NCBI GenBank assembly: GCA_913060865.1
Contig: CAJXTU010000006.1
Location: forward strand, 19,009-83,008
Origin: an uncultured Cycloclasticus sp.
GTDB taxonomy: Bacteria > Pseudomonadota > Gammaproteobacteria > Methylococcales > Cycloclasticaceae
Direction of reading: 5' to 3'
Length of the DNA stretch: 64,000 nucleotides
The notes below the pieces were generated by a model that did no database searches, was not told the origin of the DNA, and saw nothing but the letters and a program-made list of their open reading frames with translations. A program made the translations under genes and the position numbers. This document shows positions 5,327 through 53,088 of the stretch, piece after piece; position 1 is the first letter of the stretch; the number at the start of each line of letters is the position of its first letter.

Positions 5327-6496
5327 CTAGCCAAATTGCCGTTTAAAGCGCCAGACACCAAATAAAAACACCACGCTTCCTAGCATGGTAAGCCCCAGCA
5401 ATGAATCCCACAAAACAGCCAAACCCGCCCCTTTAAGCAAGATGCCATAGGCCATTTCAATATAGTAATAGAGGGGAGAGAAATACATCGCTTGGCGAAT
5501 AACTTCAGGCATGGCTTCTGGTGGCGTCCAGGCACCCGATAAAAGGATAATAGGCATCATAATCATGATAACTAGCATGGCAGCTTGGGCTAAATTTCGA
5601 CTCATGGTTGAAACAAAAAGCCCTAAGCCCGACATTGCAAAGGTATAAAGCGCCGTTACTAGAAAGAATAGCGGCAGACTGCCTTTCATCGGAACATCAA
5701 ATACACCATGAAGAATTAACCCAACACTCAGCGCCGTTCCCAATAATATAACCAGTGTCATGGAAATCACTTTCGGCAGCAGTATTTGCATCGGTGTTAA
5801 AGGAGAAACTAATAACTGTTCTATAGTACCTCGTTCTTTTTCCCGCACCGCAGCGGCGGCAGGAAGCATCATCGCCAATATCGTAATCACCGTTAATAGT
5901 TCCGATATTGACATAAACCAAGCGTCTTTCTGGTTGGGGTTGTACCAGACACGATGACGATCATCGAGCATTGGGACCGTTTCCAGGCTCTCTCCTGTTA
6001 GGCCCATTCGTTGTAGCGCGGCATCAAAACCATATTGACCAATAATCTGACTGCTGTAACTGGCCGCCAGTGAACCAAGAACGGTGTTGCTGGCATCGAC
6101 CTGCACCTGTACCGCCGCCGGCTTCCCTTGAAGTAAGTCATGCTGAAATTTAGGAGGGATGTCCAACACGACTAATGCTTCACCTTGATCTAATAATTGA
6201 ATTCCTTCCTTTTCATTAAGAATCTCACCCGATAGCTTAAAATAAGGCGGTTGAAAGCGATAAATAAGCTCTCGTGACGCCATGCTATGGTCTGAGTCAT
6301 GCACAACAACGGCCCCTTGATTAAGGTCCATCTTAACGCCACCTGCCATCAAAACATCTAAGGTAAAGAGGTAAAGAACAGCGCAGACCAAAACGGTATC
6401 ACGACCGAGTTGCAATAACTCTTTGCCGGTCATGGCAGCCATTCTTGACCACCAGTGATAGCTCTTTCCTTCTGTGATTCGCGCCATAAGGCTCAT
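5327..6496 (-). CDS. ABC-2 type exporter permease (YbhR-like)
   Basis: N-terminal TM, periplasmic loop, VREKERGTIEQLLVSP motif, five C-terminal TMs. Confidence 0.9.
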   Translation of the reverse strand: MSLMARITEGKSYHWWSRMAAMTGKELLQLGRDTVLVCAVLYLFTLDVLMAGGVKMDLNQGAVVVHDSDHSMASRELIYRFQPPYFKLSGEILNEKEGIQLLDQGEALVVLDIPPKFQHDLLQGKPAAVQVQVDASNTVLGSLAASYSSQIIGQYGFDAALQRMGLTGESLETVPMLDDRHRVWYNPNQKDAWFMSISELLTVITILAMMLPAAAAVREKERGTIEQLLVSPLTPMQILLPKVISMTLVILLGTALSVGLILHGVFDVPMKGSLPLFFLVTALYTFAMSGLGLFVSTMSRNLAQAAMLVIMIMMPIILLSGAWTPPEAMPEVIRQAMYFSPLYYYIEMAYGILLKGAGLAVLWDSLLGLTMLGSVVFLFGVWRFKRQFG

Positions 6497-7647
6497 GCTT
6501 TCACCCGTTTGTGAAAAAGGTTATAAGAGGCAACCCACAGGATGACGGTATAAAGTAGTAATGCGGCAACACGCGTCCAAAGTTGCTCCATTCCAACCCC
6601 TTTAAGGAAGCTCCCCAATGCAATATCCGTGTAGTACATGGCGGGAAATAAATGCGCTTCAAATTGCGAGGCTTCATCCATGGAGGCAATGGGTACCAAT
6701 AACCCAGAATAGAGTACCGCTGGCACAATGGTAACCACGACGGTAATCATCATTGCGGATATCTGCGTTTTTGCGAACAGGGAGACCAACAAGCCGATCC
6801 CCGTTGTACAGGTCACATAAATAACCGAAGCGATAAAGAAAAAAAGTGGATCACCTTTGAATGGTGCGCTGAATACAAAAATGGCCATCAGCCAAAGAAT
6901 CACTACGTTGATACTGGAGATAACAACGTAAGGAAATAATTTGCCGACCAAAAATTCACCACGAGTAACGGTTGATGAATAAATATTATAAATCGAGCCA
7001 TTTTCTTTTTCTCGTACAACCCCCAATGCGGTTAAAAATGGCGGTGTCATCAAGAGAATAAACATCATCATCGCCGGTGCAATAGACCAAATACTCTTAA
7101 TTTCTTGATTGTACAAATATCGAATCTCAATTTTTATTGGGCTAACGAGTGCCGTGGCCTGCTCGGGTGTTATGCCCATTCTTTGAGTCACATACGCCGT
7201 TAACAATTGAGTGTTGAATGCGTTATTGATGGCCGCCACATAACCTTTACTGGTCGATGTACGGAACGGAAAAGTGCCATCAATTAAGGATTGAACCGCG
7301 ATAGGCCGCCCTGATAGTAATGTTTCTTGAAACTTTGGAGGCACGATAATCGCGAAGCGAATTTTACTGTCTGCGATTAAGTTATCAATCTCTTTCTCAT
7401 GTTCAACATCGCCTTGATAATCAAAATAGCGAGAATCGATAAATAGATGGAGATAATCACGGCTCATTGCCGAACGATCCTGGTCGAGGATGGCGAAAGG
7501 AATATTTTCAACATCCATCTTGATGCCATAGCCAAAAACAAACATCATTGAAATGGGTACGACAAAAGCGAGAGAGAAAAATAGCCTGTCGCGTAGAATC
7601 TCCCGCCACTCTTTAAAAGCCAATGCTTTAACTCGGTTAATATTCAT
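6493..7647 (-). CDS. ABC-2 type exporter permease (YbhS-like)
   Basis: KEWREILRDR start, VREKENGSI motif. The ATG at 7647 overlaps the upstream stop; the ORF track start is 7662. Confidence 0.9.
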   Translation of the reverse strand: MNINRVKALAFKEWREILRDRLFFSLAFVVPISMMFVFGYGIKMDVENIPFAILDQDRSAMSRDYLHLFIDSRYFDYQGDVEHEKEIDNLIADSKIRFAIIVPPKFQETLLSGRPIAVQSLIDGTFPFRTSTSKGYVAAINNAFNTQLLTAYVTQRMGITPEQATALVSPIKIEIRYLYNQEIKSIWSIAPAMMMFILLMTPPFLTALGVVREKENGSIYNIYSSTVTRGEFLVGKLFPYVVISSINVVILWLMAIFVFSAPFKGDPLFFFIASVIYVTCTTGIGLLVSLFAKTQISAMMITVVVTIVPAVLYSGLLVPIASMDEASQFEAHLFPAMYYTDIALGSFLKGVGMEQLWTRVAALLLYTVILWVASYNLFHKRVKA

Positions 7648-9625
7648 GGCGAGCCATCTCATTTTCGTGCGTCATAACTTGATAGACAAAGACATCCTCT
7701 AAACTCGGATGGCGATGTGAAATTGAATGCAAAGTAATATTATTTTCTGTAAATATTGACTCAATCTGTTGGCGTACTAATTGAGGCTCCTTTGCAAGCA
7801 GGTGAATTTTCTTGCCAAATAAAGCCGCCTCTTCAAAACCAGCCTGTTCGATTAACTTAAGTGCGAGTAAAGGCTGATCGGTGGTGACTTCTAAAAGCTC
7901 TCCAGCCGCCTTGACCAACGCCTCCTTCATCTGCTCCGGTGTTGCATCAGCAATGATACGACCCGCATACATCAGTGCTAAATGGTCACAGTGTTCTGCC
8001 TCGCTCATATAATGCGTAGTGACGAGAATAGCCACCTGTTCAACACGCGCCATCTGTATCAGAATATCCCAAAAACGTCGTCGTCCTACCGGATCGACAC
8101 CCGAGGTTGGTTCATCTAGAAATAATACTTTTGGCTGGTGTACCAAGGCACAGCCTAATGCTAATCGTTGACGAATACCCATCGGCAAAGCCCCCGCCAA
8201 ACGGTTCTCGACACCCTGTAACCCTGCGGTTGCAATCACCCAGTCGACGCGCTGTTTTAATTCTTTGCGAGCTACCGCATAAATACGCGCATAGAGGCGA
8301 ATGTTTTCCAGTACTGTCATATCTTGATAGAGCGAAAATGCCTGAGACATATAGCCAATACGCTCTTTAATGGCTTGATTGGCGCGTAACATGTCTTGTC
8401 CAGCCACTTTCCCTTCCCCGCCTGTCGGCTGCAAAATGCCTGTCAGCATTTTAAAGACGGTCGACTTCCCAGCACCGTTTGCTCCCAGCAGCCCAAATAT
8501 TTCACCGTAACGAACCTGAAAACTGACCTGGTCTACCGCTCTGAAGTCACCAAAATCACGGCATAAGTTCTCCGCTTCAATGGCTAGCTTATCTTTTTGT
8601 GATGCATCAATTTCACTTGCTTGATTAGTGTCAATTGATGGCGCTGTTTCACTATCAGTCAAATTAGCCTGACTTAATAGAGCAATAAAGGCATCTTCCA
8701 TTTCAGCTTGTGAGGCATGTATCTCACTAACCTCCTGCCCTGATAATAAAGATTTTACCTGCTTAATCGCTGCCTCTTCTTCCTGCCCTTCAACAAAGAC
8801 CCGCAGCACTGCACCCACAGCTTCAACCTGTTGAAAGATTGATTTAAGTTGCGACAAAGCTACCGCTTGAGGACGAGCAATTAGCTCAACTAAGGTACCG
8901 GGAACTTTAGCAATTATTTGATCTGGTTCACCCTCCGCAATCACTTTGCCATCGTACATTAAAGAAAGCTGTTGAAAACGGGTCGCTTCGTCCATATAGG
9001 CCGTAGAAACCAGAGCAGCAATATTTTGTTCTCGTAATAAAGCGGTCAAAATAGCCCAAAAATCACGGCGTGATACGGGATCAACACCCGTCGTCGGTTC
9101 ATCTAAAATAATAAGCTCAGGCTCATGAATTAAAGTGCAGACCAAGCCCAATTTTTGTTTCATACCCCCTGATAGTAACTTCATTGGCCGGTTCGTAAAT
9201 TTATCTAACCGAGTCATCGCCAGTAACTTACGTTTTCGACTAATAAGCTGTTCGCGAGAGACTTCACGAAGTTGAGCAAAAAAGTCGATATTTTCTTCTA
9301 CCGATAGCTCTGCGTAAAGATTTTGCCCCAGCCCTTGTGGCATAAAGCCAATACGCCCTTTTATTTTCTCAGCGGCCGCCTCAGAGTCGATTATTTCTCC
9401 AAAAACCTCCACCTGGCCGCCATCGTAGGTTAACACCCCTGCAATGGCTTTCATCAGGGTGCTTTTACCCGCACCATCAGGACCAATTAGGCCATAAATT
9501 TCACCCTTATTGATGGCAAGGTCCACACCATCCACAGCCAGCTTTTTACGGTAGGACTTAGAAAAACCCTGAACCTTTACAATCGGCTCAGACACCACGG
9601 TATTCACCAGCGTGGGTTGGCCCAC
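7637..9625 (-). CDS. ABC exporter ATP-binding protein with two ATPase domains (YbhF-like)
   Basis: Two Walker A (GPDGAGKS, GANGAGKS), signature LSGGMKQ and degenerate LPMGIRQ, two Walker B LDEPT. Confidence 0.92.
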   Translation of the reverse strand: MGQPTLVNTVVSEPIVKVQGFSKSYRKKLAVDGVDLAINKGEIYGLIGPDGAGKSTLMKAIAGVLTYDGGQVEVFGEIIDSEAAAEKIKGRIGFMPQGLGQNLYAELSVEENIDFFAQLREVSREQLISRKRKLLAMTRLDKFTNRPMKLLSGGMKQKLGLVCTLIHEPELIILDEPTTGVDPVSRRDFWAILTALLREQNIAALVSTAYMDEATRFQQLSLMYDGKVIAEGEPDQIIAKVPGTLVELIARPQAVALSQLKSIFQQVEAVGAVLRVFVEGQEEEAAIKQVKSLLSGQEVSEIHASQAEMEDAFIALLSQANLTDSETAPSIDTNQASEIDASQKDKLAIEAENLCRDFGDFRAVDQVSFQVRYGEIFGLLGANGAGKSTVFKMLTGILQPTGGEGKVAGQDMLRANQAIKERIGYMSQAFSLYQDMTVLENIRLYARIYAVARKELKQRVDWVIATAGLQGVENRLAGALPMGIRQRLALGCALVHQPKVLFLDEPTSGVDPVGRRRFWDILIQMARVEQVAILVTTHYMSEAEHCDHLALMYAGRIIADATPEQMKEALVKAAGELLEVTTDQPLLALKLIEQAGFEEAALFGKKIHLLAKEPQLVRQQIESIFTENNITLHSISHRHPSLEDVFVYQVMTHENEMARHEY

Positions 9626-10524
9626 TCAACATCCTCCTGCCAGCGAATAACTGTATCAGCGGGCAAACCTGGGCTTAAGCTGTGATCGGGGTTCTCATCC
9701 AAATAAAGTTTAACCGCATACACCAATTTAACCCGTTCATCAGGTGTTTGAACCTCTTTAGGGGTAAATTCAGCTTGTGAGGCGATATAGCGCACTGTTG
9801 CCGAAAAAGGTTTATCAGGGAAGGCATCGGTGTATACACGGGCCGCTAAACCCAGTCTAACTTTACCTATCACCTTTTCAGGAATATAGACTTTTAAGTA
9901 AAGCCGATCAAGATCGACAATATCAAACAAGGGGCTGCCCGCAGCGACCACTTCGCCTTCATCAGCCAGCCGAGTGGTAATGATGCCGCTGGCCGGCGCA
10001 CGAATCGTCAAATCATCTTGAATGCTCTGTACTTCTTGCAAGCTAGCTTTAGCAACACCACATTGCGCCTTCGCAGCCGCCAGCCTGTCTTTAGTTACTT
10101 TCCAGGCAAGCTCAGTCCGCTCTGCTTCTTGCTGACTCACTGATCGTTTTTCTAATAAATTTTGCAGCCGATTATTATCCCGTAGACTTTGCTGTTCTGA
10201 CGTTTCAGCAGCATCACACTGAGCTTTAGCGGCAACAACAGCATTCTGCGCTTGTATCACCTTTGCTTGTATTTGTGCATCATCCAGGCGCGCTAAAACC
10301 TGCCCTTTAGTAACCGTATCACCTTCACGTGCTTTAAGTTCTACCACTCTACCGGGGAACTTGCTGGCAACACTGTAATGATCACCCTCAATACGACCAT
10401 TGGCCTGAATTAACCCTTCAGGCAAGGGTTCTTTATGAAACCATAGCCAGCCAACTGTGATAGCAATACTCGCTACTAAACCAATCAATAACAGTACGAC
10501 CACGTTTTTTGTTGAAACACTCAT
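9604..10524 (-). CDS. HlyD-family membrane fusion protein (YbhG-like)
   Basis: N-terminal TM, ANGRIEG, lipoyl halves, AEFTPKEVQTPDERVKLVYAVK motif. Confidence 0.9.
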   Translation of the reverse strand: MSVSTKNVVVLLLIGLVASIAITVGWLWFHKEPLPEGLIQANGRIEGDHYSVASKFPGRVVELKAREGDTVTKGQVLARLDDAQIQAKVIQAQNAVVAAKAQCDAAETSEQQSLRDNNRLQNLLEKRSVSQQEAERTELAWKVTKDRLAAAKAQCGVAKASLQEVQSIQDDLTIRAPASGIITTRLADEGEVVAAGSPLFDIVDLDRLYLKVYIPEKVIGKVRLGLAARVYTDAFPDKPFSATVRYIASQAEFTPKEVQTPDERVKLVYAVKLYLDENPDHSLSPGLPADTVIRWQEDVEWANPRW

Positions 10525-15606: not shown

Positions 15607-16512
15607 TTGATTAACACCGCCACTAAACTTTTCCCCGTTTGGGCGATATTATTGTCCCTCGTCGCTTATGCACTGCCTGGCCTATTTATACCGCTAAAAC
15701 CTAGCCTCTTTTTCTTGCTCGGCCTGGTGATGTTTGGCATGGGCATCAGTCTGAAAGCCAGCGATTTTTTGCGTATTCTCAAATCGCCCAAGCCTATCGT
15801 TCTCGGTTTATTGCTGCAATTTATATGTATGCCATTTTTTGCTTGGGGCATATCCACTTGGTTACAGTTACCACTAGCGTTAGCGAGTGGTATGGTTCTC
15901 GTCGGTGCAAGCCCCGGCGGCACTGCCTCTAATGTTATCTGCTATTTAGCTAAAGGTAACGTAGCCTTGTCTATCACCATCACTACTTTCTCGACCTTAT
16001 TGGCGGTCATTGCCACCCCTACATTAAGCCTGCTCTATCTTGGAAAGCACGTTGATGTACCGGCAATGAAAATGCTCATGGATATCGTAAAGATTATTAT
16101 TTTACCCGTCGCTGCAGGGGTTATTGTTAATCAAGTTTTTGGCCGTTTTTTACACTCAACTAGGCAGGTATTTCCGTTGATTTCTGTCTTTGCCATCGTG
16201 TTAATTATTGCCATTATTGTCGCACTCAATCAATCTCGTTTAGGCTCTGTTGGAGCCTTATTGATTGCCGCTGTTGCCATGCATAATGCTCTTGGCTTAG
16301 TCGTGGGGTATTGGTTGCCTCGTGCGTTTGGTATGGATCAACGCACATGCAAAACCCTGTCGATTGAAGTTGGTATGCAAAACTCTGGTTTGGCTGTGGC
16401 CTTGGCTGTTAAATACTTCGCACCAGTTGCCGCCTTACCAGGCGCTCTATTTTCCTTGTGGCATAATTTGACGGGCTCACTGCTCGCCTCTTTTTGGTCG
16501 CGCGCTAAATAA
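15607..16512 (+). CDS. Bile acid:Na+ symporter family transporter (PanS-like)
   Basis: SPGGTASNV and SIEVGMQNSGLA motifs; TTG start after an AAGGA RBS. Confidence 0.88.
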   Translation: MINTATKLFPVWAILLSLVAYALPGLFIPLKPSLFFLLGLVMFGMGISLKASDFLRILKSPKPIVLGLLLQFICMPFFAWGISTWLQLPLALASGMVLVGASPGGTASNVICYLAKGNVALSITITTFSTLLAVIATPTLSLLYLGKHVDVPAMKMLMDIVKIIILPVAAGVIVNQVFGRFLHSTRQVFPLISVFAIVLIIAIIVALNQSRLGSVGALLIAAVAMHNALGLVVGYWLPRAFGMDQRTCKTLSIEVGMQNSGLAVALAVKYFAPVAALPGALFSLWHNLTGSLLASFWSRAK

Positions 16513-16519
16513 TCAGCAT

Positions 16520-16549
16520 AAAAAACACCCTCTATTTGATAGAGGGCGC
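16520..16549. terminator. Intrinsic terminator between convergent BASS gene and tupA
   Basis: CCCTCTAT-TTG-ATAGAGGG stem with a U-tract on the minus strand. Confidence 0.8.
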
Positions 16550-16573
16550 TTATCAAGCTTAAGCTAGCGTTAA

Positions 16574-17383
16574 TTACTGAGCGTCAGGGTAAAACAACTG
16601 CTGACCACCTTTGCGAAAGCTCGCGATGATGTCTTGACCTTCTTTGCTCGTTACGAATTTAATATACTTCATTGCTAGGTCGTACTTAACGCCTTTATGC
16701 TTTTCAGGGTTAACAGCCATCACATGGTAGGGGTTAAATAAAGCATCATCTCCTTCAAACAATACCTTCAACGACACTTTATCAGCAAAAGCAATTTGAG
16801 TACCTCGGTCTGTTAATGCATATGCTTGCTTTTCATTCGCTATATTTAGCACGGCACCCATGCCTTGGCCCACGTCTACATACCAATCTCCGACAGGTGT
16901 AACACCCCCTTTTTGCCATAAAAGCCTTTCTTTCTTATGCGTGCCTGAGTCATCACCCCTAGAAATAAAAGCCGCCTCTACATCGGCAATTCTTTGCAAT
17001 GCTTCTTCGACGGTCCCCGCCGTGGCTAATCTTGCTGGGTCATTGGCCGGCCCTATCAGCACAAAGTCATTATGCATCACAGCTTTACGATCAATAAAAT
17101 CACCAGACTTAACATATTTCAATTCTGCGCCTGGCGCATGAACAAACACCACATCAACATCACCTTGTGCACCCATTCTCAATGCTTTACCTGTACCGAC
17201 CGCAATCGCTTCAAGCTTGATACCGTACTGCGCTTCAAACGCAGGGTTTAACACCGCCAATAACCCTGAGTTTTCTGTACTGGTGGTGGTTGACATTCTA
17301 AGCACATCCGATGCTAAGCTGGCCGGTGCCACCATAGCTAATGTACTTAAACCTACAAATAACACTGCTTTAATTATTCTCAT
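16574..17383 (-). CDS. tupA: Tungstate ABC transporter periplasmic binding protein
   Basis: Signal peptide; STTTSTENSGLL (TTTS motif), VGTGKAL, HNDFVLIGP, FISRGDDSGTH, NPYHVMAVNP. Confidence 0.88.
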   Translation of the reverse strand: MRIIKAVLFVGLSTLAMVAPASLASDVLRMSTTTSTENSGLLAVLNPAFEAQYGIKLEAIAVGTGKALRMGAQGDVDVVFVHAPGAELKYVKSGDFIDRKAVMHNDFVLIGPANDPARLATAGTVEEALQRIADVEAAFISRGDDSGTHKKERLLWQKGGVTPVGDWYVDVGQGMGAVLNIANEKQAYALTDRGTQIAFADKVSLKVLFEGDDALFNPYHVMAVNPEKHKGVKYDLAMKYIKFVTSKEGQDIIASFRKGGQQLFYPDAQ

Positions 17384-17460
17384 CTAACATCCCCTCTTAC
17401 TTAAGTCATTAATTTTATTCATAACACTTAAGACGGCTAATAAAAGCCGCATTTCATTGC

Positions 17461-18819
17461 CTAGAATGCCCATTGACCGCGAAGCTGCATAATGTCGGCT
17501 TCTTCATTTTCGTGCGCTCCACCGTCCACTTCTAATACTTTGATGTAGTTGGCAGAAAAACGTAAACCTGCTACTGGAAACCAATTTAGACCCAGTGTCA
17601 TATTGTCCATCTCACCACCGTCTATGCCAGAATCCACTAAATCAATCGTGCTATAGCGAAGCGCTAGTTCCCACGCACCCATACCACCGTTACCAAACGG
17701 GCTATTCGGTTTAACGGCTTTAAATTTTGCACCTTTGTGAGTATACGGGCGCGTATCATCCGTTAGGAACCAACCTGTTTGTGCGTACCAACCATCAAAT
17801 GTAGGGTCGCTTGTCGTCTCGCGGTCTAACTGAGTACGGATATATTCCATTTGGCCAGAAAACCTATCTTGAACAACCGCTAATTCAGCCCCTAATGATA
17901 GGTAGCTATCAACATCCATTAGTTTGCCCGTATCCACAAAATTCACGCCTGATATGTTGGTTTCCGGCTGCTGTTTGAATTGAACCTCACCACCACGGCT
18001 ACTACGGTAATTTGCCGCCAACCCTAAATGAACTAACGAGCCCTTTTCATTCACTGGCATCCAAGTAGCACGCCCCCCTAATCCCCAACCTTCATCATCT
18101 GAGCCACCATTGGTACTCGCTTTATCACCAAACACACCAAGTGCTGTTGTCCAGTGCTGACGGTTAATGCTGCCCATTACGCCAATATGTCTGCCTGCCG
18201 TAAAGGCATCAATAGACGCTCTTTCGGTAAATTGCGTATTATTATCACTCACTTGATCTTGCAGCATAAAAGGATCTCTAAAGTGCCCAGCCTTAACACT
18301 TAGGCCTGCAAAATCAAACCCGTTATAACCCACCCAAATATCGGTAATGCCTTTTCTTGTATCCCCTGTTCCGGCAAAATCATATTCAAACTTATAGAAC
18401 CAATCTTTATTTACCGTGCCTTTAATATAAAGCCTTGCACGGCGTACCTTCGTACCATCGCCCAACGTACTACCTGTTGCCGAATCATCTTCGCCATACC
18501 AAGCTGAATCTAACTGCATTCGACCGCCGATTTTTGTAGTGAAATCGCCATCACGTGATTTAACAGCCAAGCCACCTTTATCAACATTCACTTCAACGCT
18601 TGTTGCCTTATCAAGCTTTTCTTGAATCTCGGCTGCCTGCGCTACCGTTTTTTGTTCTGAAGCGTGCGCTTCGGCTAATACACGTTGATATTGCGCATCT
18701 GATATCGTGCCATTTTCATGCAGCAACATGAGCAGCGTTTTAAGCTCCGAACCGGCGTGTGCTGGTGATGATAATCCGGCACAAACGGCCATTGCTAACG
18801 CTAACTTATTAAATTTCAT
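17461..18819 (-). CDS. OprO/OprP-family oxyanion-selective outer-membrane porin
   Basis: Signal peptide from ATG 18819 (AAGGA RBS), KIGGRMQLD, RRARLYIKG, GAWELALRYS, C-terminal aromatic QWAF. Confidence 0.85.
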   Translation of the reverse strand: MKFNKLALAMAVCAGLSSPAHAGSELKTLLMLLHENGTISDAQYQRVLAEAHASEQKTVAQAAEIQEKLDKATSVEVNVDKGGLAVKSRDGDFTTKIGGRMQLDSAWYGEDDSATGSTLGDGTKVRRARLYIKGTVNKDWFYKFEYDFAGTGDTRKGITDIWVGYNGFDFAGLSVKAGHFRDPFMLQDQVSDNNTQFTERASIDAFTAGRHIGVMGSINRQHWTTALGVFGDKASTNGGSDDEGWGLGGRATWMPVNEKGSLVHLGLAANYRSSRGGEVQFKQQPETNISGVNFVDTGKLMDVDSYLSLGAELAVVQDRFSGQMEYIRTQLDRETTSDPTFDGWYAQTGWFLTDDTRPYTHKGAKFKAVKPNSPFGNGGMGAWELALRYSTIDLVDSGIDGGEMDNMTLGLNWFPVAGLRFSANYIKVLEVDGGAHENEEADIMQLRGQWAF

Positions 18820-18863
18820 TCGTTTTTCCTTATTATTGATTCCCAAAATACCTGTTGGCACAA

Positions 18864-18880
18864 AGCAAAACCAATGCCAA
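18864..18880 (-). promoter_or_regulatory. Sigma54 (-24/-12) promoter of the porin-tupA unit
   Basis: Minus strand TTGGCATTGGTTTTGCT = GG-N10-GC in TGGCA...TTGC context, about 45 bp upstream of the porin ATG. Confidence 0.85.
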
Positions 18881-18965: not shown

Positions 18966-19012
18966 TGTGACATTTTGTCTCAAGATACAAAGTCTTTTGA
19001 CAGAATGTCTCA
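18966..19012. promoter_or_regulatory. Tandem upstream activator palindromes
   Basis: TGTGACA-TTT-TGTCTCA (18966-18982) and TTTGACA-GAA-TGTCTCA (18996-19012), 30 bp apart. Confidence 0.7.
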
Positions 19013-19024
19013 TCACTATTTTTC

Positions 19025-19972
19025 ATGAACACTCCAAAAAACCCTCAGCTTCGCAAAGCTATTCGCGACCGCCACTCATTTTTTGGCAATAACCCCATTA
19101 TCGTCAAACTATTGGATGATATTCAGCGTGTCGCCCTTAAAAACACACCAATTTTATTAGACGGCGAAACAGGTACCGGCAAAAGCTTATTAGCTAGAAA
19201 AATTCATGATCTCAGCCAACGTAAAGGTCCCTTTGTATCCATTAACTGTGCAACCTTTAGTCAACATCTACTAGAAACTGAATTATTTGGCCACGCAAAA
19301 GGCGCTTTTACAGGTGCAAAGGACGCACGAAAGGGACTAGTCGCCACAGCGCAAAACGGCACCCTTTTTTTAGATGAAATTGGTGAGCTTCCACTAGACT
19401 CCCAACCAAAACTTTTGCATCTTTTAGAAGAAAAAACGATTCGTCCTGTTGGTTCAGACAAAGAATATAACACCTCCGTCCGTATCGTCGCTGCGACTAA
19501 CCAACGCCTAAAAGACCTCGTTAAACAAGGTTTATTCAGAGCAGACTTATATTATCGCTTAAGTGTCGTCCCCTTTACCGCCCCTCCCCTTCGTGAACGC
19601 CCAGATGATATTGAGGCACTCACCACAACCTTTGTCTCCCAACTTTGTGAGGAACACGAGCTATCAAAACCTAGCATATCAACCGAATCAATCAATGCAT
19701 TAAAAGCGCATGACTGGCCCGGCAATATTCGCGAGCTGCGCAACCATATTGAACGCTCGTTACTCTTAGGCACCCCGTTACATGAGAAGCTACCGATAAA
19801 TAAAAACCATTCGCCAGCTACAAGCACACGATGCCTAAAATCACTCGAGAAGGCACACATCCTTAAGGTTATCGATGAGAGTAATGGCAATAAATCTCAA
19901 GCCGCGAACAATTTGGGGATTTCTCGCCGCACACTGGATAGAAAGCTGAAACGTTGGCAGCAAGCCGCCTAA
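19025..19972 (+). CDS. Sigma54-dependent enhancer-binding activator lacking an N-terminal sensor domain
   Basis: Walker A GETGTGKS, GAFTGA loop, FLDEIGE, FRADLYYRL, WPGNIREL, Fis-type HTH; only about 20 aa precede the AAA+ domain. Confidence 0.92.
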   Translation: MNTPKNPQLRKAIRDRHSFFGNNPIIVKLLDDIQRVALKNTPILLDGETGTGKSLLARKIHDLSQRKGPFVSINCATFSQHLLETELFGHAKGAFTGAKDARKGLVATAQNGTLFLDEIGELPLDSQPKLLHLLEEKTIRPVGSDKEYNTSVRIVAATNQRLKDLVKQGLFRADLYYRLSVVPFTAPPLRERPDDIEALTTTFVSQLCEEHELSKPSISTESINALKAHDWPGNIRELRNHIERSLLLGTPLHEKLPINKNHSPATSTRCLKSLEKAHILKVIDESNGNKSQAANNLGISRRTLDRKLKRWQQAA

Positions 19973-43972: not shown

Positions 43973-46105
43973 ATGTCATCTGTAGCAGAAGTCAGTAATA
44001 ACGTAAAAATAACTAAAACTATTGTGCTGAATACAGGCACTGTTGCACAAAAGCGAGAAGAAATTCGCGATTACTTGCATAAAACCTTCCAATTGGAAGA
44101 GCAACTATACGAAGCGCTGACATCTGATGAAGCCTTCTATCTAAGACCTGAATCACTTCGCCACCCACTGGTTTTTTATTACGGTCATACCGCTACTTTT
44201 TTCATTAACAAATTAACGCTCGCCTCTCTCATTCATCAACGCGTTAACCCACGTTTTGAATCCATCTTCGCTGTTGGTGTTGATGAAATGTCCTGGGATG
44301 ATTTAAATGAATCGAATTATGACTGGCCCAGTATTGCTGAGGTCCGTGAATACCGGCAAACCGTGCTGACGCTTATTGACTCACTCATAAGCACGCTACC
44401 GCTCGACCTACCCATCACTTGGGAAAGCCCTTTTTGGCCTATCCTCATGGGTATTGAACATCAACGCATTCATATTGAAACCTCCTCAGCTATCATTCGT
44501 CAAATGCCCCTTGAGTACTTGCAACCGCATAGTACTTGGACTGTTTGCCCTCACGTTGGAGAGTCACCTACTAATCAGTTACTCGATGTGGAAAGTGGCC
44601 GTATTAAACTGGGCAAAGATAAAAACCACAAAACCTACGGCTGGGATAACGAATACGGCGAGAAAGTTGCCGACATTCAAGAGTTTTCCGCCAGTAAGTA
44701 CCTTGTCTCAAATGGTGAGTTTCTCAGCTTCATAAAAGACAATGGCTATCATCAAAAAAGATTTTGGACCGAAGAGGGCTGGAACTGGGTGCAATATAAA
44801 AAACCCGAGCACCCGCTTTTTTGGATACAAAAGGACGATCGCTACCTTCTTCGTACCTTATTAGAAGAACAAGAAATGCCTTGGAATTGGCCAGCAGAAG
44901 TGAATTACTTAGAGGCTAAAGCTTTTTGTAACTGGCTAAGCGATAAAAAAGGAACCACTATTCGCTTACCCACCGAAGAGCAATGGCAGCACTTACATGA
45001 ATTGCATGATATTCCAGATCAACCCGAATGGGAGCAAGCACCGGGTAATATTAATCTTGAACACTGGGCATCTGCCTGCCCTGTTGATCACTTTGCCTTT
45101 GGCGAATTTCACGATTTAATCGGCAATGCTTGGCAATGGACAGAAACACCCATCAGCGGTTTCGATGGCTTTGAAGTCCACCCTTTATATGATGACTTCT
45201 CAACACCCACCTTCGACACACAACACAACTTAATTAAAGGCGGCTGTTGGATTTCCACTGGAAACGAAGCCACCAAACACGCGCGCTATGCCTTTAGACG
45301 TCATTTTTATCAACACGCGGGTTTCCGCTATGTAGAATCAAATCAACCTATGGAAAAACCAACCGCTATGTACGAAACCGATACCGCTGTCTCACAATAT
45401 TGTCACTTTCACTACGGCCCTAGTTATTTTGATGTGGAAGATCTCTCTGCTCATTGTGTTCGGCTATGCATGGAAAAACTCGACGCTAAACCGACCGCTC
45501 GCGCACTCGATTTAGGCTGCGCTGTTGGTCGCGCTTCTTTTGAACTAGCACAACACTTTGACACCGTAACAGGCATTGACTTCTCTGCACGTTTTATTCG
45601 TATCGCCCATCAAATGCAGCAAAAAGGCAACATTCATTACGAATTGATTGAAGAAGGCGAGATCGTGTCCTACCACGAACAAACACTTGAGCAGATTGGC
45701 CTAAGCAAAAACCAAGAAAATATTGAGTTTTTTCAAGGCGATGCTACTAATCTAAAACCCCAGTTCACGAATTACGACCTAGTGTTAGCTATTAACCTCA
45801 TTGATCGATTACGCACACCCGCTGTTTTCCTCGATGATATTCGCCATAGAATTAACGTTGGCGGCGTATTAGCCATTGCTTCACCGTACACTTGGCTGGA
45901 AGAGTTCACCCCTAAAGAAAACTGGCTAGGCGGCATCCGTAAAGATGGTGAACCGTATTCCACCTTAGAAGGCTTAAAGGATCATTTAGGCGTACATTTC
46001 AAATTGATTAACGAGCCTACGGATGTCCCTTTCGTTATCCGTGATACTAAACGGAAGTTTCAGCACAGCTTTAGTCAACTAAGTATTTGGCAGCGCATAT
46101 CGTAA
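43973..46105 (+). CDS. ovoA: 5-histidylcysteine sulfoxide synthase with C-terminal methyltransferase (ovothiol biosynthesis)
   Basis: LRHPLVFYYGH, HQRIHIE (HX3HXE iron motif), FGE-sulfatase domain ending RRHFYQHAGFR, YETD..VSQY, SAM motif LDLGCAVGR. Confidence 0.93.
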   Translation: MSSVAEVSNNVKITKTIVLNTGTVAQKREEIRDYLHKTFQLEEQLYEALTSDEAFYLRPESLRHPLVFYYGHTATFFINKLTLASLIHQRVNPRFESIFAVGVDEMSWDDLNESNYDWPSIAEVREYRQTVLTLIDSLISTLPLDLPITWESPFWPILMGIEHQRIHIETSSAIIRQMPLEYLQPHSTWTVCPHVGESPTNQLLDVESGRIKLGKDKNHKTYGWDNEYGEKVADIQEFSASKYLVSNGEFLSFIKDNGYHQKRFWTEEGWNWVQYKKPEHPLFWIQKDDRYLLRTLLEEQEMPWNWPAEVNYLEAKAFCNWLSDKKGTTIRLPTEEQWQHLHELHDIPDQPEWEQAPGNINLEHWASACPVDHFAFGEFHDLIGNAWQWTETPISGFDGFEVHPLYDDFSTPTFDTQHNLIKGGCWISTGNEATKHARYAFRRHFYQHAGFRYVESNQPMEKPTAMYETDTAVSQYCHFHYGPSYFDVEDLSAHCVRLCMEKLDAKPTARALDLGCAVGRASFELAQHFDTVTGIDFSARFIRIAHQMQQKGNIHYELIEEGEIVSYHEQTLEQIGLSKNQENIEFFQGDATNLKPQFTNYDLVLAINLIDRLRTPAVFLDDIRHRINVGGVLAIASPYTWLEEFTPKENWLGGIRKDGEPYSTLEGLKDHLGVHFKLINEPTDVPFVIRDTKRKFQHSFSQLSIWQRIS

Positions 46106-50487: not shown

Positions 50488-51378
50488 TTAAGTATGAGTT
50501 TTAATAAATGTGCCTATCCGTTGAAGTGCTTGTCGTGCTTCAGGAATCAATTTGGACATTAATTGCCATACATGGACCTGCCCATCCCACACTTCAAGTG
50601 TGCTATCAACACCGGCTTTTTTTGCTATTTTATTTAGACGCACAGCATCGTCTAGCAATACTTCATTACTACCTACCTGAATTAATAACGGTGGCAACCC
50701 AGTAAGATCAGCAAAAATGGGCGAAACTCGTGAGTCATTAGCTGTTAAGTCTGCTAAATACTGCTTACCAAGCCAGGCCAACGATTCCTTACACAAAATA
50801 GAATCTGCCTTAGCATTTGTTTGCATTGAATCACCTGAAAAACTTAAATCAGCCCAAGGCGACAAACAAACACCTGCGGCAGGTAACGGTATACCTTCTT
50901 CCTTTAAAGCAACCATCAGTGCCACGGCTAAACCTCCACCTGCTGAGTCACCTGCAATAACAATTTTTTCTGGTTTTTCAGCATTTTCAAGCAAGGCTTT
51001 ATACGCAGATATTGCGTCATCCAATGCGCCTGGGAATGGCGTTTCTGGTGCTAAACGGTAATCTAAGACAAACACTCGCGCCTGAGCTAAATTCGCCATC
51101 AGCCCCGCCAAACCACCGTGACTGGTTGGCGACCCAAGCACATAACCACCACCATGTAGGTATAAAACGACTGTTTCTTTGCTGCCTAATTGAGCCTCAT
51201 GCCACTCTCCAGCCAGACCACCTATCACCTCTAATCGGCCAGGCTTACCCTTAACACTCATCGCAGACATCTTATCCATCGATGCACGTTCTTTTAGCAA
51301 ATCACCGCTTCTTGCAAACTTCTTTTTAACGGTCATTCGCAGAAAAGTTGCTAATAATTGACTTCGCACACTGGCCAT
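50488..51378 (-). CDS. HSL-family (alpha/beta hydrolase) esterase
   Basis: HGGG, DYRLAPE, GDSAGG nucleophile elbow, E.LLDD, HVW. Confidence 0.92.
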   Translation of the reverse strand: MASVRSQLLATFLRMTVKKKFARSGDLLKERASMDKMSAMSVKGKPGRLEVIGGLAGEWHEAQLGSKETVVLYLHGGGYVLGSPTSHGGLAGLMANLAQARVFVLDYRLAPETPFPGALDDAISAYKALLENAEKPEKIVIAGDSAGGGLAVALMVALKEEGIPLPAAGVCLSPWADLSFSGDSMQTNAKADSILCKESLAWLGKQYLADLTANDSRVSPIFADLTGLPPLLIQVGSNEVLLDDAVRLNKIAKKAGVDSTLEVWDGQVHVWQLMSKLIPEARQALQRIGTFIKTHT

Positions 51379-51594: not shown

Positions 51595-53088
51595 ATGTCA
51601 AATATATCGGAAACAATTAACGCACTAAAAAAGGGAGGTGCTAAAGAACCTCGCATCATTATCATGGGTGCTGGCATGTCTGGTATTTTAATGGGCATTA
51701 ACCTATTAAAAGCGGGTTTAACTAACTTTAGCATTTATGAAAAGCGCCACACCATTGGCGGCACTTGGCGTGAAAACACATACCCTGGCATTGCCTGCGA
51801 CATTCCCTCTTACTTTTATACCTATAGTTTTGAACCCAACCCAAACTGGACTCGACGCTTCCCCCCGGGCTCTGAAGTTCAAGCCTATTTTGAACGTGTA
51901 TTTGATAAGTATCAGTTGGCTAGCCACACCACGTTTAATGAAGAAATCATCAACACTCAACATAAAGATGGCCAGTGGCATATTGAAACCGCCAGTGGTA
52001 AGAGCGATACAGCTGATTTTATTGTAGCGGCCACTGGTGTTTTACATAAAATAAATCAACCTAAGTTTGAAGGTATAGAAAATTTTAAAGGCGACACCTT
52101 TCATACAGCACGTTGGAATCATGACATCGAATTAAAAGGCAAGAAAATAGGCATTATAGGGGGCGGTTCCACAGGGACTCAGATGATTGAACCTCTCTCA
52201 AACGTAGCAAAAGAACTTACACTATTCCAACGTACCCCTCAGTGGGTTTTCCCAATCCCTGATAAGGCTTACTCCAAACTATGGATCAAAGCCGTTAAAC
52301 GTTTTCCTGCTCTTGGTAAAGGCCTGTACCGCATTTATAAATTTATGCAAGAAAGAACCGTGGGCGTTGCGACCATTAAACCGGGCTGGAACCGATCCAT
52401 ACTGAATAAGGCCTGCCAATGGAATTTAAACCATGTAAAGGATGCTGCATTACGCGCCAAGTTAACACCCAACTATGAACCCGGTTGTAAGCGCCTGGTT
52501 ATGTCTACCTCCTTTTATCCCGCTATTCAAAAACCCCACTGTTCTTTAGTAACAGAAGGCATAGATAAAATTGAAGCTAACGGTATTCGTACCAAAGATG
52601 GCGTGCTGCATGAATTGGATATTATTGTCCAAGCCACTGGCTTTGATGGCTTTGCTTTTATGCGCCCGATGACCATGCAGGGTTCAAACAACACCAGCTT
52701 AGCTAATGCGTGGGAAAACGGCCCGCGTGCTTTTCGCGCCATTACCATCCCTAATTTCCCTAACTTTTTTATGCTGAATGGCCCCAATAGCCCTATTGGC
52801 AATTATTCCCTTATTGCCATTGCTGAAACACAAAGCACATATATTATGCAGTGCATACAAAAATATATGGAAGGCGGTTTTGACTATATCGAACCTAAAC
52901 AAGAAGCCGTGGATAGTTTTTACGAAACTGTCCACAAAGCGTTACCTGGTACTATTTGGACGACCGGTTGCCAAAGTTGGTATTTAGATGACAAAGGCGT
53001 GCCTTTATTATGGCCATGGTCCCCACAGCGTTATGCAAAAGAAATGAGTCAACCGAATTTTAATAATTACCACCTAAAAAAGGCTTAA
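51595..53088 (+). CDS. Baeyer-Villiger-type flavoprotein monooxygenase
   Basis: GAGMSG, GGTWRENTYPGIACD, FKGDTFHTARW fingerprint, GGGSTG, ATGF, C.SWY. Confidence 0.9.
   Translation: MSNISETINALKKGGAKEPRIIIMGAGMSGILMGINLLKAGLTNFSIYEKRHTIGGTWRENTYPGIACDIPSYFYTYSFEPNPNWTRRFPPGSEVQAYFERVFDKYQLASHTTFNEEIINTQHKDGQWHIETASGKSDTADFIVAATGVLHKINQPKFEGIENFKGDTFHTARWNHDIELKGKKIGIIGGGSTGTQMIEPLSNVAKELTLFQRTPQWVFPIPDKAYSKLWIKAVKRFPALGKGLYRIYKFMQERTVGVATIKPGWNRSILNKACQWNLNHVKDAALRAKLTPNYEPGCKRLVMSTSFYPAIQKPHCSLVTEGIDKIEANGIRTKDGVLHELDIIVQATGFDGFAFMRPMTMQGSNNTSLANAWENGPRAFRAITIPNFPNFFMLNGPNSPIGNYSLIAIAETQSTYIMQCIQKYMEGGFDYIEPKQEAVDSFYETVHKALPGTIWTTGCQSWYLDDKGVPLLWPWSPQRYAKEMSQPNFNNYHLKKA

What the first reader, a model, noticed from the sequence alone, without database searches (positions are those of the whole stretch)
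16574..18819. Porin + TupA two-gene oxyanion uptake unit with no tupB/tupC
An OprO/P-family porin is followed 77 bp later by a TTTS-motif TupA tungstate-binding protein, and then a terminator (16520-16549). TupA normally sits in a tupABC operon (established). Pairing it with an anion-selective porin instead suggests an outer-membrane entry and periplasmic capture module for trace tungstate or molybdate. It could feed a permease encoded elsewhere or act as a scavenger or sensor (inference). I am not aware of a characterised tungstate porin.
Basis: partly seen in the sequence, partly recalled or inferred. Interest (0 to 1): 0.75.

Follow-up and report, generated by a model that had tools for sequence, protein, structure and literature searches.

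The report
Sigma-54-driven porin plus tungstate-binding protein
A marine hydrocarbon-degrading bacterium (Cycloclasticus) co-transcribes an OprP-like outer-membrane anion channel with a tungstate-binding protein from a sigma-54 promoter, and comparison with relatives suggests this is the outer half of a split tungstate uptake system whose inner-membrane pump lies elsewhere, which would make the channel an as yet uncharacterised candidate tungstate/molybdate porin.

Summary
An OprO/P-family porin (17461-18819, minus strand) lies 77 bp upstream of a TupA-family binding protein (16574-17383) that carries every known tungstate-site residue, and a strong terminator follows.

It holds a sigma-54 -24/-12 promoter, two palindromic upstream sites, and a divergent receiver-less sigma-54 activator (19025-19972).

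The linkage is not unique. A Porin_O_P gene sits directly upstream of tupA in 28 other loci, and an unrelated AlgE-like barrel fills the same slot in 11 more. Eight loci are complete channel-tupA-tupB-tupC operons. One of them has a homologous activator.

"No tupB/tupC" holds only locally:
- At least 9 relatives with a porin-tupA pair carry tupBC elsewhere in the same assembly.
- A published Cycloclasticus MAG with this same locus also lists moeA-tupC-tupB-tupA and a tungsten aldehyde:ferredoxin oxidoreductase.

The activator family controls tupABC in Shewanella, Photobacterium and Ferrimonas through the same promoter and site motif.

Best reading: this is the outer-membrane and periplasmic front end of tungstate uptake. 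Channel selectivity and hand-off to TupBC are inferred, not shown. I found no characterised tungstate porin in the literature. I rate it a new variant of a known kind, of moderate interest.

The parts
17461..18819 (-). OprO/OprP-family outer-membrane porin, 452 aa. Signal peptide at residues 1-22, a conserved helical N-terminal extension at about 23-72, then a beta-barrel.
   Evidence: Pfam Porin_O_P, E 2.2e-66. PDB sequence hits: OprP 2O4V at E 2.7e-28 and OprO at 1e-24. AlphaFold model has pLDDT 82.8. Foldseek gives TM 0.73/0.80 to OprP and 0.73/0.77 to OprO, against 0.52 or less (query-normalised) for other porins. OprP constriction residues R34, R59, R60, D94, S124 and R133 are invariant. 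Y62 is replaced by R, Y114 by R or K, and K121 by D, E or Q.
16574..17383 (-). TupA-family periplasmic tungstate/molybdate-binding protein, 269 aa, with a Sec signal peptide.
   Evidence: PBP_like_2. Geobacter TupA structure 3LR1 at E 2.6e-81 and D. alaskensis TupA 5MY5 at 2.5e-62. T32-T33-T34-S35, H82, R142, T148 and D192 correspond to TTTS, H59, R118, T124 and D170 of the characterised TupA. These residues are conserved in 80-84 of 84 homologues. The NCBIfam TupA equivalog scores 244.8 bits, below its cut-off of 400.
17384..17460 (-). 77-bp porin-tupA spacer with an RBS (AAGAGGGGA). There is no intrinsic terminator, so the two genes are probably co-transcribed.
   Evidence: Sequence. The fold shows a small hairpin without a U run, z-score -1.8.
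16523..16551 (-). Rho-independent terminator that closes the operon.
   Evidence: 13-bp stem followed by a T run. Folding energy -25.2 kcal/mol, z-score -4.5.
18864..18879 (-). Sigma-54 -24/-12 promoter, TGGCATTGGTTTTGCT, about 45 nt upstream of the porin ATG.
   Evidence: It is the only match to TGGCAY-N5-TTGCT in the window, where 0.15 are expected by chance. The same element is conserved in L001, L002, L245, L246, L247, L218 and in Shewanella, Photobacterium and Ferrimonas tupA upstream regions.
18969..19011 (-). Two upstream activator sites, GAGACA-N3-TGTC palindromes at 18969-18981 and 18999-19011. They are 30 bp apart and lie about 90-130 bp upstream of the -24 element. The distal one is 14 bp from the activator's own ATG.
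   Evidence: These are the only two matches in the window, where 0.04 are expected by chance. GACA-N3-TGTC palindromes are conserved in L001, L002, L245-L249 and L218; in L250 (Ferrimonas) the scan reported no match and I saw only a looser GTCATTTTGAC by eye.
19025..19972 (+). Divergent sigma-54 enhancer-binding protein, 315 aa. It has an AAA+ domain and a Fis-type HTH, and no receiver or sensor domain.
   Evidence: Sigma54_activat, E 4.6e-63, plus AAA_lid_14 and HTH_8. Walker A (residue 47), GAFTGA (93) and Walker B (114) are intact. Homologues at 61-69% identity sit divergently from channel-tupA. Homologues at 47-49% identity carry a REC domain and a Cache histidine kinase and sit divergently from tupABC-mob/moe/moa.

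Best explanation
This is a three-gene module in a Cycloclasticus genome. A receiver-less sigma-54 activator binds two palindromic sites and drives a sigma-54 promoter. From that promoter an OprO/P-type anion channel and a TupA tungstate-binding protein are co-transcribed.

The proposed mechanism runs as follows:
1. The channel has a conserved basic binding core, which lets trace tetrahedral oxyanions (tungstate, and also molybdate) cross the outer membrane efficiently at very low concentration.
2. TupA captures the oxyanion in the periplasm.
3. TupA hands it to a TupBC ABC importer encoded elsewhere in the genome.
4. The tungsten supplies tungsten enzymes such as the aldehyde:ferredoxin oxidoreductase annotated in a congeneric Cycloclasticus MAG, where it was proposed for short-chain alkane metabolism.

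The unit is a split derivative of channel-tupABC operons that still exist intact in related Gammaproteobacteria.

Shown here:
- Gene identities.
- Promoter and activator-site motifs and their conservation.
- Recurrent synteny.
- tupBC encoded elsewhere in relatives.

Inferred:
- The channel's substrate.
- Hand-off to TupBC.
- Activator binding.
- Tungsten rather than molybdenum as the physiological target.
For: Identity:
- The TupA is close to solved TupA structures.
- It has all residues implicated in tungstate binding.
- The porin has the OprP/OprO fold and an invariant basic constriction core.

Linkage:
- Porin_O_P lies directly upstream of tupA in 28 non-window loci.
- An unrelated AlgE-like barrel (PF13372) occupies the same slot in 11 loci.
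- Seven Porin_O_P loci (L058, L213, L215, L218, L220, L229, L231) and one AlgE-like locus (L234) continue directly into tupB-tupC.
- L218 is the closest complete relative. It has activator (62% identity), then divergently porin (55%), tupA (71%), tupB and tupC, with the same promoter and site motif.

Pump elsewhere:
- At least 23 assemblies whose tupA locus lacks tupB carry tupB(C) on another contig or hundreds of kb away. Nine of these have the porin-tupA pair, for example OBS4 (L006/L176), Kmv26 (L007/L175) and OZ245018 (L059/L253).
- 59 tupB-anchored loci, most of them Methylophaga or Methylophagaceae, have tupC but no adjacent tupA.
- A published Cycloclasticus MAG with the same proS-activator-porin-TupA-BASS-uvrA order also lists moeA-tupC-tupB-tupA and moaA-FeS-AOR-FAD subunit.

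Regulation:
- The promoter and both upstream sites are statistically unexpected and conserved.
- The same activator family controls tupABC-mob/moe/moa in Shewanella, Photobacterium and Ferrimonas.

Selection:
- dN/dS is 0.05-0.16 for all three genes.

From my own knowledge, not checked here: seawater holds roughly 100 nM Mo but only tens of pM W. A binding-site channel would therefore matter far more for tungsten than for molybdenum.
Against: - There is no direct evidence of channel selectivity. The R62 and K/R114 substitutions also occur in a SulP-adjacent Porin_O_P paralogue (L247), so they are not tup-specific.
- The extracellular arginine ladder of OprP is not conserved.
- TupBC was not found in any Cycloclasticus genome in three genome scans. 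Those scans are pattern-limited and return only 80 loci. The claim of a pump elsewhere in this genus therefore rests on one published annotation table of a congeneric MAG, not the same genome.
- That MAG's tupCBA cluster has its own TupA, so the porin-linked TupA is not strictly needed for transport.
- Many close relatives have tupA without any channel gene (for example moaC-tupA in L010, L013 and L017). L246 has lost the barrel. The channel is therefore accessory.
- No transcript evidence was found.
- The NCBIfam TupA equivalog cut-off is not met.
Confidence: 0.62

Rival explanations
1. The module serves molybdate, or both oxyanions without preference, rather than tungstate. The architecture is the same, but the physiological cargo is Mo for nitrate reductase and other molybdoenzymes.
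For: Characterised TupA proteins also bind molybdate at nM affinity (PMC5517513). In Methylophaga and other relatives the locus sits beside moaC/moaD/moaE or mob/moe/moa genes, which serve both metals. One Cycloclasticus variant has narGHJI.
Against: TupA family members studied so far prefer W by about 1000-fold or more. The R118-equivalent arginine and the TTTS motif are intact. A tungsten AOR is annotated in a congeneric MAG. Seawater Mo is abundant (my own knowledge), so a dedicated high-affinity channel for Mo seems less necessary.
Confidence: 0.2
2. The porin is an ordinary phosphate or general anion porin, as databases label it, and it merely shares a transcript with tupA. It has no specific role in W/Mo entry.
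For: All database names call it an OprO/OprP phosphate-selective porin. The phosphate-binding core of OprP is retained. Basic residues at positions 62 and 114 are shared with a non-tup paralogue.
Against: The gene is embedded in tup operons across hosts whose porins are only 35-91% identical. An unrelated AlgE-like barrel replaces it at exactly the same position. It is driven by a tup-dedicated sigma-54 activator and not by anything resembling Pho control. The congeneric MAG has its pstS/pstC/phoR cluster elsewhere. The two tyrosines at positions 62 and 114 are both replaced; OprO differs from OprP at these positions, as the 4RJX entry title indicates.
Confidence: 0.12
3. The porin-linked TupA is not a transport component. 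It acts as a periplasmic buffer, store or sensor for tungstate, for example to sequester W or to signal its availability.
For: The congeneric MAG has a second TupA inside the canonical tupCBA cluster. This copy has no adjacent permease. The local activator has lost its receiver domain and its kinase, so sensing must be organised differently.
Against: Orthologues of this very copy (57-71% identity) sit directly before tupB-tupC in 7 loci. In L233 and L235 it precedes a second tupA and then tupBC. In Methylophaga-type genomes no tupA is adjacent to tupBC, which suggests this clade is the transport partner there; I did not check those genomes for further tupA copies elsewhere. No signalling partner is encoded nearby.
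Confidence: 0.06

Closest known systems
OprP and OprO of Pseudomonas aeruginosa (phosphate- and diphosphate-specific porins; PDB 2O4V, 4RJW)
   Same: Same Pfam family and same predicted fold (TM 0.73-0.80). Central anion-binding residues R34, R59, R60, D94, S124 and R133 are invariant. Like OprP, it is co-expressed with a high-affinity periplasmic binding protein of the PBP_like_2 superfamily.
   Different: Only about 25-30% identity. Y62 and Y114 are both replaced by basic residues, K121 by an acidic or polar residue, and the extracellular arginine ladder (R218-R242) is not conserved. It has an extra conserved helical N-terminal extension of about 50 residues. It is driven by sigma-54 and linked to tupA, not to Pho or pst. 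Its substrate is untested.
TupABC tungstate ABC transporter (Eubacterium acidaminophilum, Campylobacter jejuni, Desulfovibrio alaskensis G20, Geobacter sulfurreducens TupA)
   Same: The TupA here shares the fold family and every residue implicated in oxyanion binding.
   Different: TupB and TupC are not adjacent. An outer-membrane channel gene precedes tupA. The characterised systems have no dedicated channel gene described in the papers read here.
Channel-tupABC operons of related Gammaproteobacteria (L218, L213, L215, L220, L229, L231, L058; AlgE-like form in L234). These are uncharacterised and were seen only in this survey.
   Same: Orthologous porin (36-55% identity) and TupA (57-71%). 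L218 also has a homologous sigma-54 activator, promoter and site motif.
   Different: Those operons keep tupB-tupC in line. The window's unit ends at a terminator after tupA.
Sigma-54 two-component control of tupABC in Shewanella, Photobacterium and Ferrimonas (REC-AAA+-HTH regulator plus Cache histidine kinase). I know of no publication describing it.
   Same: Homologous AAA+/HTH core (47-49% identity). Same divergent arrangement, the same TGGCAY-N5-TTGC promoter, and a GACA-N3-TGTC upstream site in Shewanella (L248) and Photobacterium (L249); Ferrimonas (L250) shows only a looser GTCATTTTGAC, seen by eye.
   Different: The Cycloclasticus protein has no receiver domain and no kinase partner. 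Intermediate 441-444-aa forms carry a degenerate receiver in which the phospho-acceptor Asp is Ser and the conserved Lys is Pro.

Membership tests
OprO/OprP porin family (Pfam PF07396) | Significant match to the family profile over the full barrel | tested here: met
   225.1 bits against a cut-off of 20.9, covering profile positions 2-370 of 370.
OprO/OprP porin family (Pfam PF07396) | OprP-like 16-stranded barrel fold | tested here: met
   AlphaFold model with pLDDT 82.8. The best PDB matches are OprP and OprO at TM 0.73-0.80, well above other porins. This is a prediction, not a solved structure.
OprO/OprP porin family (Pfam PF07396) | Central basic anion-binding constriction (R34, R59, R60, D94, R133, S124 of OprP) | tested here: met
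   All six residues are invariant in the window porin and 18 tupA-linked homologues.
OprO/OprP porin family (Pfam PF07396) | Extracellular arginine ladder and the Y62/Y114 (OprP) or F62/D114 (OprO) specificity pair | tested here: not met
   R218, R220, R222 and R226 align with K, Q, E and S. Position 62 is R and position 114 is R or K. The loop alignment is uncertain.
OprO/OprP porin family (Pfam PF07396) | Phosphate or diphosphate selectivity and Pho-regulon control | not testable with these tools
   Selectivity needs bilayer electrophysiology. The promoter found here is sigma-54 type with a tup-family activator, which argues against Pho control but does not measure it.
TupA (tungstate-binding component of TupABC) | TTTS motif plus His59, Arg118, Thr124 and Asp170 (D. 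alaskensis numbering) | tested here: met
   T32-S35, H82, R142, T148 and D192. These residues are conserved in 80-84 of 84 homologues.
TupA (tungstate-binding component of TupABC) | Close sequence relation to experimentally studied or solved TupA | tested here: met
   3LR1 at E 2.6e-81 and 5MY5 at E 2.5e-62. In the published MAG the orthologue scores 364.8 for KEGG K05772 against a threshold of 110.87.
TupA (tungstate-binding component of TupABC) | NCBIfam NF041772 equivalog cut-off | tested here: not met
   244.8 bits against a cut-off of 400. The match covers the full length, so this looks like a narrow model rather than a different family.
TupA (tungstate-binding component of TupABC) | Encoded with tupB and tupC | tested here: not met
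   tupB and tupC are absent from the 64-kb window. They are present in line in orthologous loci and elsewhere in a congeneric MAG.
TupA (tungstate-binding component of TupABC) | pM tungstate affinity with preference over molybdate | not testable with these tools
   Needs ITC on the purified protein.
Bacterial enhancer-binding proteins (sigma-54 activators) | AAA+ domain with a GAFTGA loop and Walker A/B motifs, plus a C-terminal HTH | tested here: met
   PF00158 at E 4.6e-63 and HTH_8 at 3.1e-14. GETGTGKS, GAFTGA and LFLDEI are all present.
Bacterial enhancer-binding proteins (sigma-54 activators) | Cognate -24/-12 promoter and upstream binding sites at the target | tested here: met
   for the window; for conservation. 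Actual binding and activation were not tested.
Bacterial enhancer-binding proteins (sigma-54 activators) | N-terminal signal-input domain | tested here: not met
   The protein starts at the AAA+ domain. Relatives have a degenerate or complete receiver domain.

The most novel reading that the evidence does not exclude
A deep clade of OprO/P-family porins, and convergently an AlgE-like barrel, may be dedicated outer-membrane channels for tungstate or molybdate. On this reading they were originally part of four-gene channel-tupABC operons in marine methylotrophs, methanotrophs and hydrocarbon degraders. That would be the first substrate-specific porin for a trace-metal oxyanion, and these proteins are currently mislabelled as phosphate porins. 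The channels are controlled by a dedicated tup regulator. In one lineage this is a sigma-54 activator that has progressively lost its receiver domain and its kinase. In another lineage it is a ModE-HTH/PBP_like regulator.
Probability: 0.5. Interest if true: 0.7.

Novelty: new variant of a known kind. Interest (0 to 1): 0.55.

Why it matters
How molybdate and tungstate cross the outer membrane is usually left to "general porins". Tungsten in seawater is orders of magnitude scarcer than molybdenum (my own knowledge). Yet marine alkane degraders, methylotrophs and methanotrophs depend on tungsten enzymes such as AOR and W-formate dehydrogenase.

A binding-site channel co-expressed with TupA would explain how picomolar W is acquired. 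It would also correct a widespread "phosphate porin" annotation. It would give a tractable system of two small genes and one promoter for bilayer, ITC and uptake experiments.

The recurrent recruitment of two unrelated barrel families to the same operon slot is a clean natural experiment that argues for function. The sigma-54 activator series, running from full receiver plus kinase to pseudo-receiver to none, points to an undescribed tungstate-responsive two-component system in Shewanella, Photobacterium and related genera.

Tried and rejected
- **TupB in Cycloclasticus.** Three genome-collection scans with TupB queries returned no Cycloclasticus locus. I do not read this as absence. A published Cycloclasticus MAG lists tupB and tupC.
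- **Transcript evidence.** No RNA run holds the locus. Laying four metatranscriptome assemblies gave only short spurious matches to conserved AAA+ motifs.
- **Literature.** Searches for a tungstate or molybdate porin, for OprP with tungstate, and for sigma-54 control of tupABC found nothing relevant. A search for the OprO/OprP residue-swap paper found nothing in the held library. That point rests on my own knowledge plus the PDB entry title for 4RJX.
- **Decaying relic.** Rejected. The ORFs are intact, the regulatory sites are conserved, and dN/dS is 0.05-0.16.
- **Adjacent SBF/PanS-like transporter (15607-16512) as TupA's membrane partner.** Rejected. It is convergent, has its own family assignment, and is absent from L003 and L246.
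- **The downstream ABC-2 system in Methylophaga loci as a partner.** Rejected. It is ABC-2/GldG-like and not a binding-protein-dependent permease.
- **The longer GTG start at 18861 for the porin.** Rejected. It overlaps the promoter and homologues start at the ATG.
Full report
**What is there**

On the minus strand the window encodes a 452-aa OprO/P-family porin (17461-18819) and a 269-aa TupA-like binding protein (16574-17383). They are separated by 77 bp, and a strong intrinsic terminator follows at 16523-16551. The spacer has an RBS and no terminator.

The organism is a Cycloclasticus. The exact TupA protein occurs in NCBI MAG GCA_029210065.1 and in many marine, oil and seep metagenomes. 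The nearest genome loci are Cycloclasticus MAGs, with UvrA at 87-94% identity.

**TupA identity**

The protein matches the Geobacter TupA structure 3LR1 at E 2.6e-81 and the biochemically characterised D. alaskensis TupA 5MY5 at 2.5e-62. The residues that PMC5517513 singles out are TTTS, His59, Arg118, Thr124 and Asp170. Here they are T32-S35, H82, R142, T148 and D192, and they are conserved in 80-84 of 84 homologues. NCBIfam's TupA equivalog scores 244.8 bits, below its cut-off of 400. I read that as a narrow model, because the match covers the full length.

**Porin identity**

The Pfam Porin_O_P match has E 2.2e-66. An AlphaFold model (pLDDT 82.8) superposes on OprP and OprO at TM 0.73-0.80 and on no other porin above 0.52 on the query-normalised score.

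I aligned the window porin with OprP and 18 tupA-linked homologues:
- The central anion-binding core (R34, R59, R60, D94, S124, R133) is invariant.
- Y62 becomes Arg, Y114 becomes Arg or Lys, and K121 becomes Asp, Glu or Gln.
- The extracellular arginine ladder is not kept.

Positions 62 and 114 are the pair that differs between OprP and OprO. This rests on my own knowledge, and the PDB entry 4RJX is titled as the F62Y/D114Y OprO mutant. The channel is therefore very probably anion-specific, with a filter unlike either characterised member.

One caution applies. A Porin_O_P paralogue next to a SulP gene in L247 also has R62 and K114, so these residues are not diagnostic of tungstate.

A conserved helical N-terminal extension of about 50 residues (motif GSE-L..LL.MLHENG..SD.QY) is absent from OprP.

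About 45 nt upstream of the porin ATG is TGGCATTGGTTTTGCT (18864-18879). It is the only match to the sigma-54 pattern in the window, where 0.15 are expected by chance. Further upstream lie two GAGACA-N3-TGTC palindromes, 30 bp apart (18969-18981 and 18999-19011). These are the only two in the window, where 0.04 are expected.

Divergently transcribed from 19025 is a 315-aa sigma-54 activator. It has an intact AAA+ domain (Walker A, GAFTGA, Walker B) and a Fis-type HTH, and no input domain. The promoter and both sites are conserved in the Cycloclasticus loci that keep the activator (L001, L002). They are gone from the mussel-symbiont locus L003, which lacks the activator.

**Is the linkage real?**

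I surveyed loci anchored on TupA and on TupB, plus contigs that encode activator homologues:
- A Porin_O_P gene lies directly upstream of tupA, on the same strand, in 28 loci other than the window.
- These include Cycloclasticus, about 14 Methylophaga or Methylophagaceae loci, Methylococcales and other gammaproteobacterial MAGs. Porin identity to the window runs from 35% to 91%.
- In 11 further loci, mostly methanotrophs including mussel and snail symbionts, the same slot holds an unrelated AlgE-like barrel, PF13372.
- Seven Porin_O_P loci and one AlgE-like locus continue straight into tupB-tupC.

The most informative locus is L218, a Guaymas gammaproteobacterial MAG. It has the activator (62% identity), then divergently a sigma-54 promoter, porin (55%), tupA (71%), tupB and tupC, with the same UAS motif.

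Two different barrel families recruited to the same position in tup operons is the strongest argument that an outer-membrane channel is functionally coupled to TupA.

The channel is nevertheless accessory. Several Methylophaga loci have moaC-tupA with no channel. In L246 only the first 99 codons of the porin survive.

**Where are tupB and tupC?**

They are not in the window. In relatives the system is routinely split:
- At least 23 assemblies whose tupA locus lacks tupB carry tupB(C) on another contig or far away on the same chromosome. Nine of these have the porin-tupA pair. In OZ245018, for example, the two loci are about 290 kb apart.
- Conversely, 59 tupB-anchored loci, most of them Methylophaga or Methylophagaceae, have tupC but no adjacent tupA.
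- Methanotrophs scatter the parts further: moaC-tupB at one locus, and tupC-regulator with a divergent channel-tupA at another.

For Cycloclasticus itself my three scans found no TupB, but these scans are not exhaustive. The answer came from the literature. Supplementary Dataset S3 of PMC12510462 annotates a Cycloclasticus MAG with the same gene order:
- proS
- a sigma-54 regulator, mislabelled NifA
- an OprO/P porin
- TupA (K05772)
- BASS
- uvrA
- MFS

Under the same contig label it also lists moeA-tupC-tupB-tupA, about 240 gene numbers away, and a moaA-FeS-AOR-FAD-subunit cluster. The paper proposes the tungsten AOR for oxidising alkane-derived aldehydes.

So a pump, a second TupA and a tungsten enzyme exist in the genus. 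I could not confirm them for the window's own genome.

**The activator family**

Short forms of 311-316 aa (64-98% identity) are confined to this group. All three contexts I looked up show them divergent from tupA:
- with the porin in L245,
- with the porin remnant in L246,
- as a 444-aa form with an AlgE-like barrel in L247.

The 441-444-aa forms carry a degenerate receiver domain. The phospho-acceptor Asp aligns with Ser, and the conserved Lys aligns with Pro.

At 47-49% identity, Shewanella carassii, Photobacterium damselae and Ferrimonas gelatinilytica have a full REC-AAA+-HTH protein followed by a Cache-domain histidine kinase. This pair is divergent from tupA-tupB-tupC-mobA-mobB/moeA(-moaA). 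The same TGGCAY-N5-TTGC promoter is present in all three. A GACA-N3-TGTC palindrome is present in Shewanella and Photobacterium. Ferrimonas shows only a looser GTCATTTTGAC, seen by eye.

The family is therefore a dedicated tup regulator. The Cycloclasticus version has lost both the kinase and the receiver. How it senses anything is open. It may be constitutive, it may be regulated through its own expression (one site lies 14 bp from its ATG), or it may be held by an unknown partner.

Methylophaga and methanotrophs instead use a ModE-type HTH plus PBP_like (PF12727) regulator in the same divergent position.

**Mechanism proposed**

1. The sigma-54 holoenzyme sits at the -24/-12 element.
2. The activator, bound at the two palindromes, remodels it.
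3. The porin and TupA are made together.
4. The porin's basic binding core concentrates and passes tetrahedral oxyanions at trace levels, as OprP does for phosphate.
5. TupA captures tungstate, which the family binds at pM affinity against nM for molybdate, and docks on TupBC encoded elsewhere.

The gene identities, motifs, their conservation, and the split-operon pattern are shown. Activator binding, channel substrate, hand-off to TupBC, and W rather than Mo as the cargo are inferred.

All three genes are under purifying selection, with dN/dS of 0.05-0.16. The unit is therefore not a relic.

**Comparison and novelty**

The parts belong to known families: Porin_O_P, TupA and bEBP. I found nothing on the following in the searchable literature:
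- the coupling of an OprO/P-type or AlgE-type channel to Tup,
- the split front-end arrangement,
- sigma-54 control with a receiver-less activator.

Databases call the channel a phosphate porin. I rate it a new variant of a known kind. It is interesting mainly as a testable candidate for the first trace-metal oxyanion porin.

Noticed in passing
L248, L249, L250 (Shewanella carassii, Photobacterium damselae, Ferrimonas gelatinilytica): A REC-type sigma-54 activator plus a Cache-domain histidine kinase sits divergently from tupA-tupB-tupC-mobA-mobB/moeA(-moaA). The sigma-54 promoter is conserved in all three, and a GACA-N3-TGTC site in L248 and L249. This looks like an undescribed tungstate/molybdate-responsive two-component system.
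   Followed up: partly
L218:1138-2463; L247:6001-7335; proteins P0025-P0034: These are 441-444-aa forms of the activator with a degenerate receiver domain. The phospho-acceptor Asp aligns with Ser and the conserved Lys with Pro. They are intermediate between the full response regulators and the receiver-less Cycloclasticus form.
   Followed up: partly
L023, L025, L028, L030, L031, L037, L041, L049, L061, L234, L247: An AlgE-like (Alginate_exp, PF13372) barrel of about 460 aa replaces the OprO/P porin directly upstream of tupA. Most of these loci are from methanotrophs, including invertebrate symbionts.
   Followed up: partly
L246:5491-5796: A 101-aa ORF between the activator and tupA is the first 99 residues of the porin (71% identity). 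The barrel has been deleted, so the channel has been lost naturally while tupA and the promoter remain.
   Followed up: yes
L233, L235: A porin is followed by two tandem tupA genes (58-59% and 49-50% identical to the window TupA) and then tupB-tupC. This mirrors, within one operon, the two TupA copies of Cycloclasticus.
   Followed up: no
window 17461-18819, residues 23-72 of the porin: A conserved helical N-terminal extension (GSE-L..LL.MLHENG..SD.QY) is present in all tupA-linked porins and absent from OprP. A similar but divergent segment occurs in the SulP-adjacent paralogue of L247. Its role is unknown; it could be a periplasmic docking or oligomerisation element.
   Followed up: partly
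L003 (Cycloclasticus symbiont of Bathymodiolus heckerae): The porin-tupA pair is retained, but the activator gene and both upstream sites are absent, and proS abuts the porin. Only a degenerate GG-N10-GC element remains.
   Followed up: partly
window 43973-46105 (+): A 710-aa protein with DinB_2, FGE-sulfatase and methyltransferase domains. This is the architecture of OvoA-type ovothiol synthases.
   Followed up: no
window 50488-51378 (-) and 51595-53088 (+): A divergent pair consisting of an Abhydrolase_3 esterase and a flavin monooxygenase (FMO/BVMO-like). This combination is typical of ketone-to-ester-to-alcohol steps in subterminal alkane oxidation.
   Followed up: no
window 5327-10524 (-): A four-gene efflux-type cluster: a HlyD-family adaptor, a fused double ABC ATPase (662 aa) and two ABC-2 permeases.
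   Followed up: no
L081, L123: tupA and tupB read through in one frame as an ORF of about 512 aa in my ORF extension. This could be a fusion, or simply the absence of an in-frame stop between adjacent genes.
   Followed up: no
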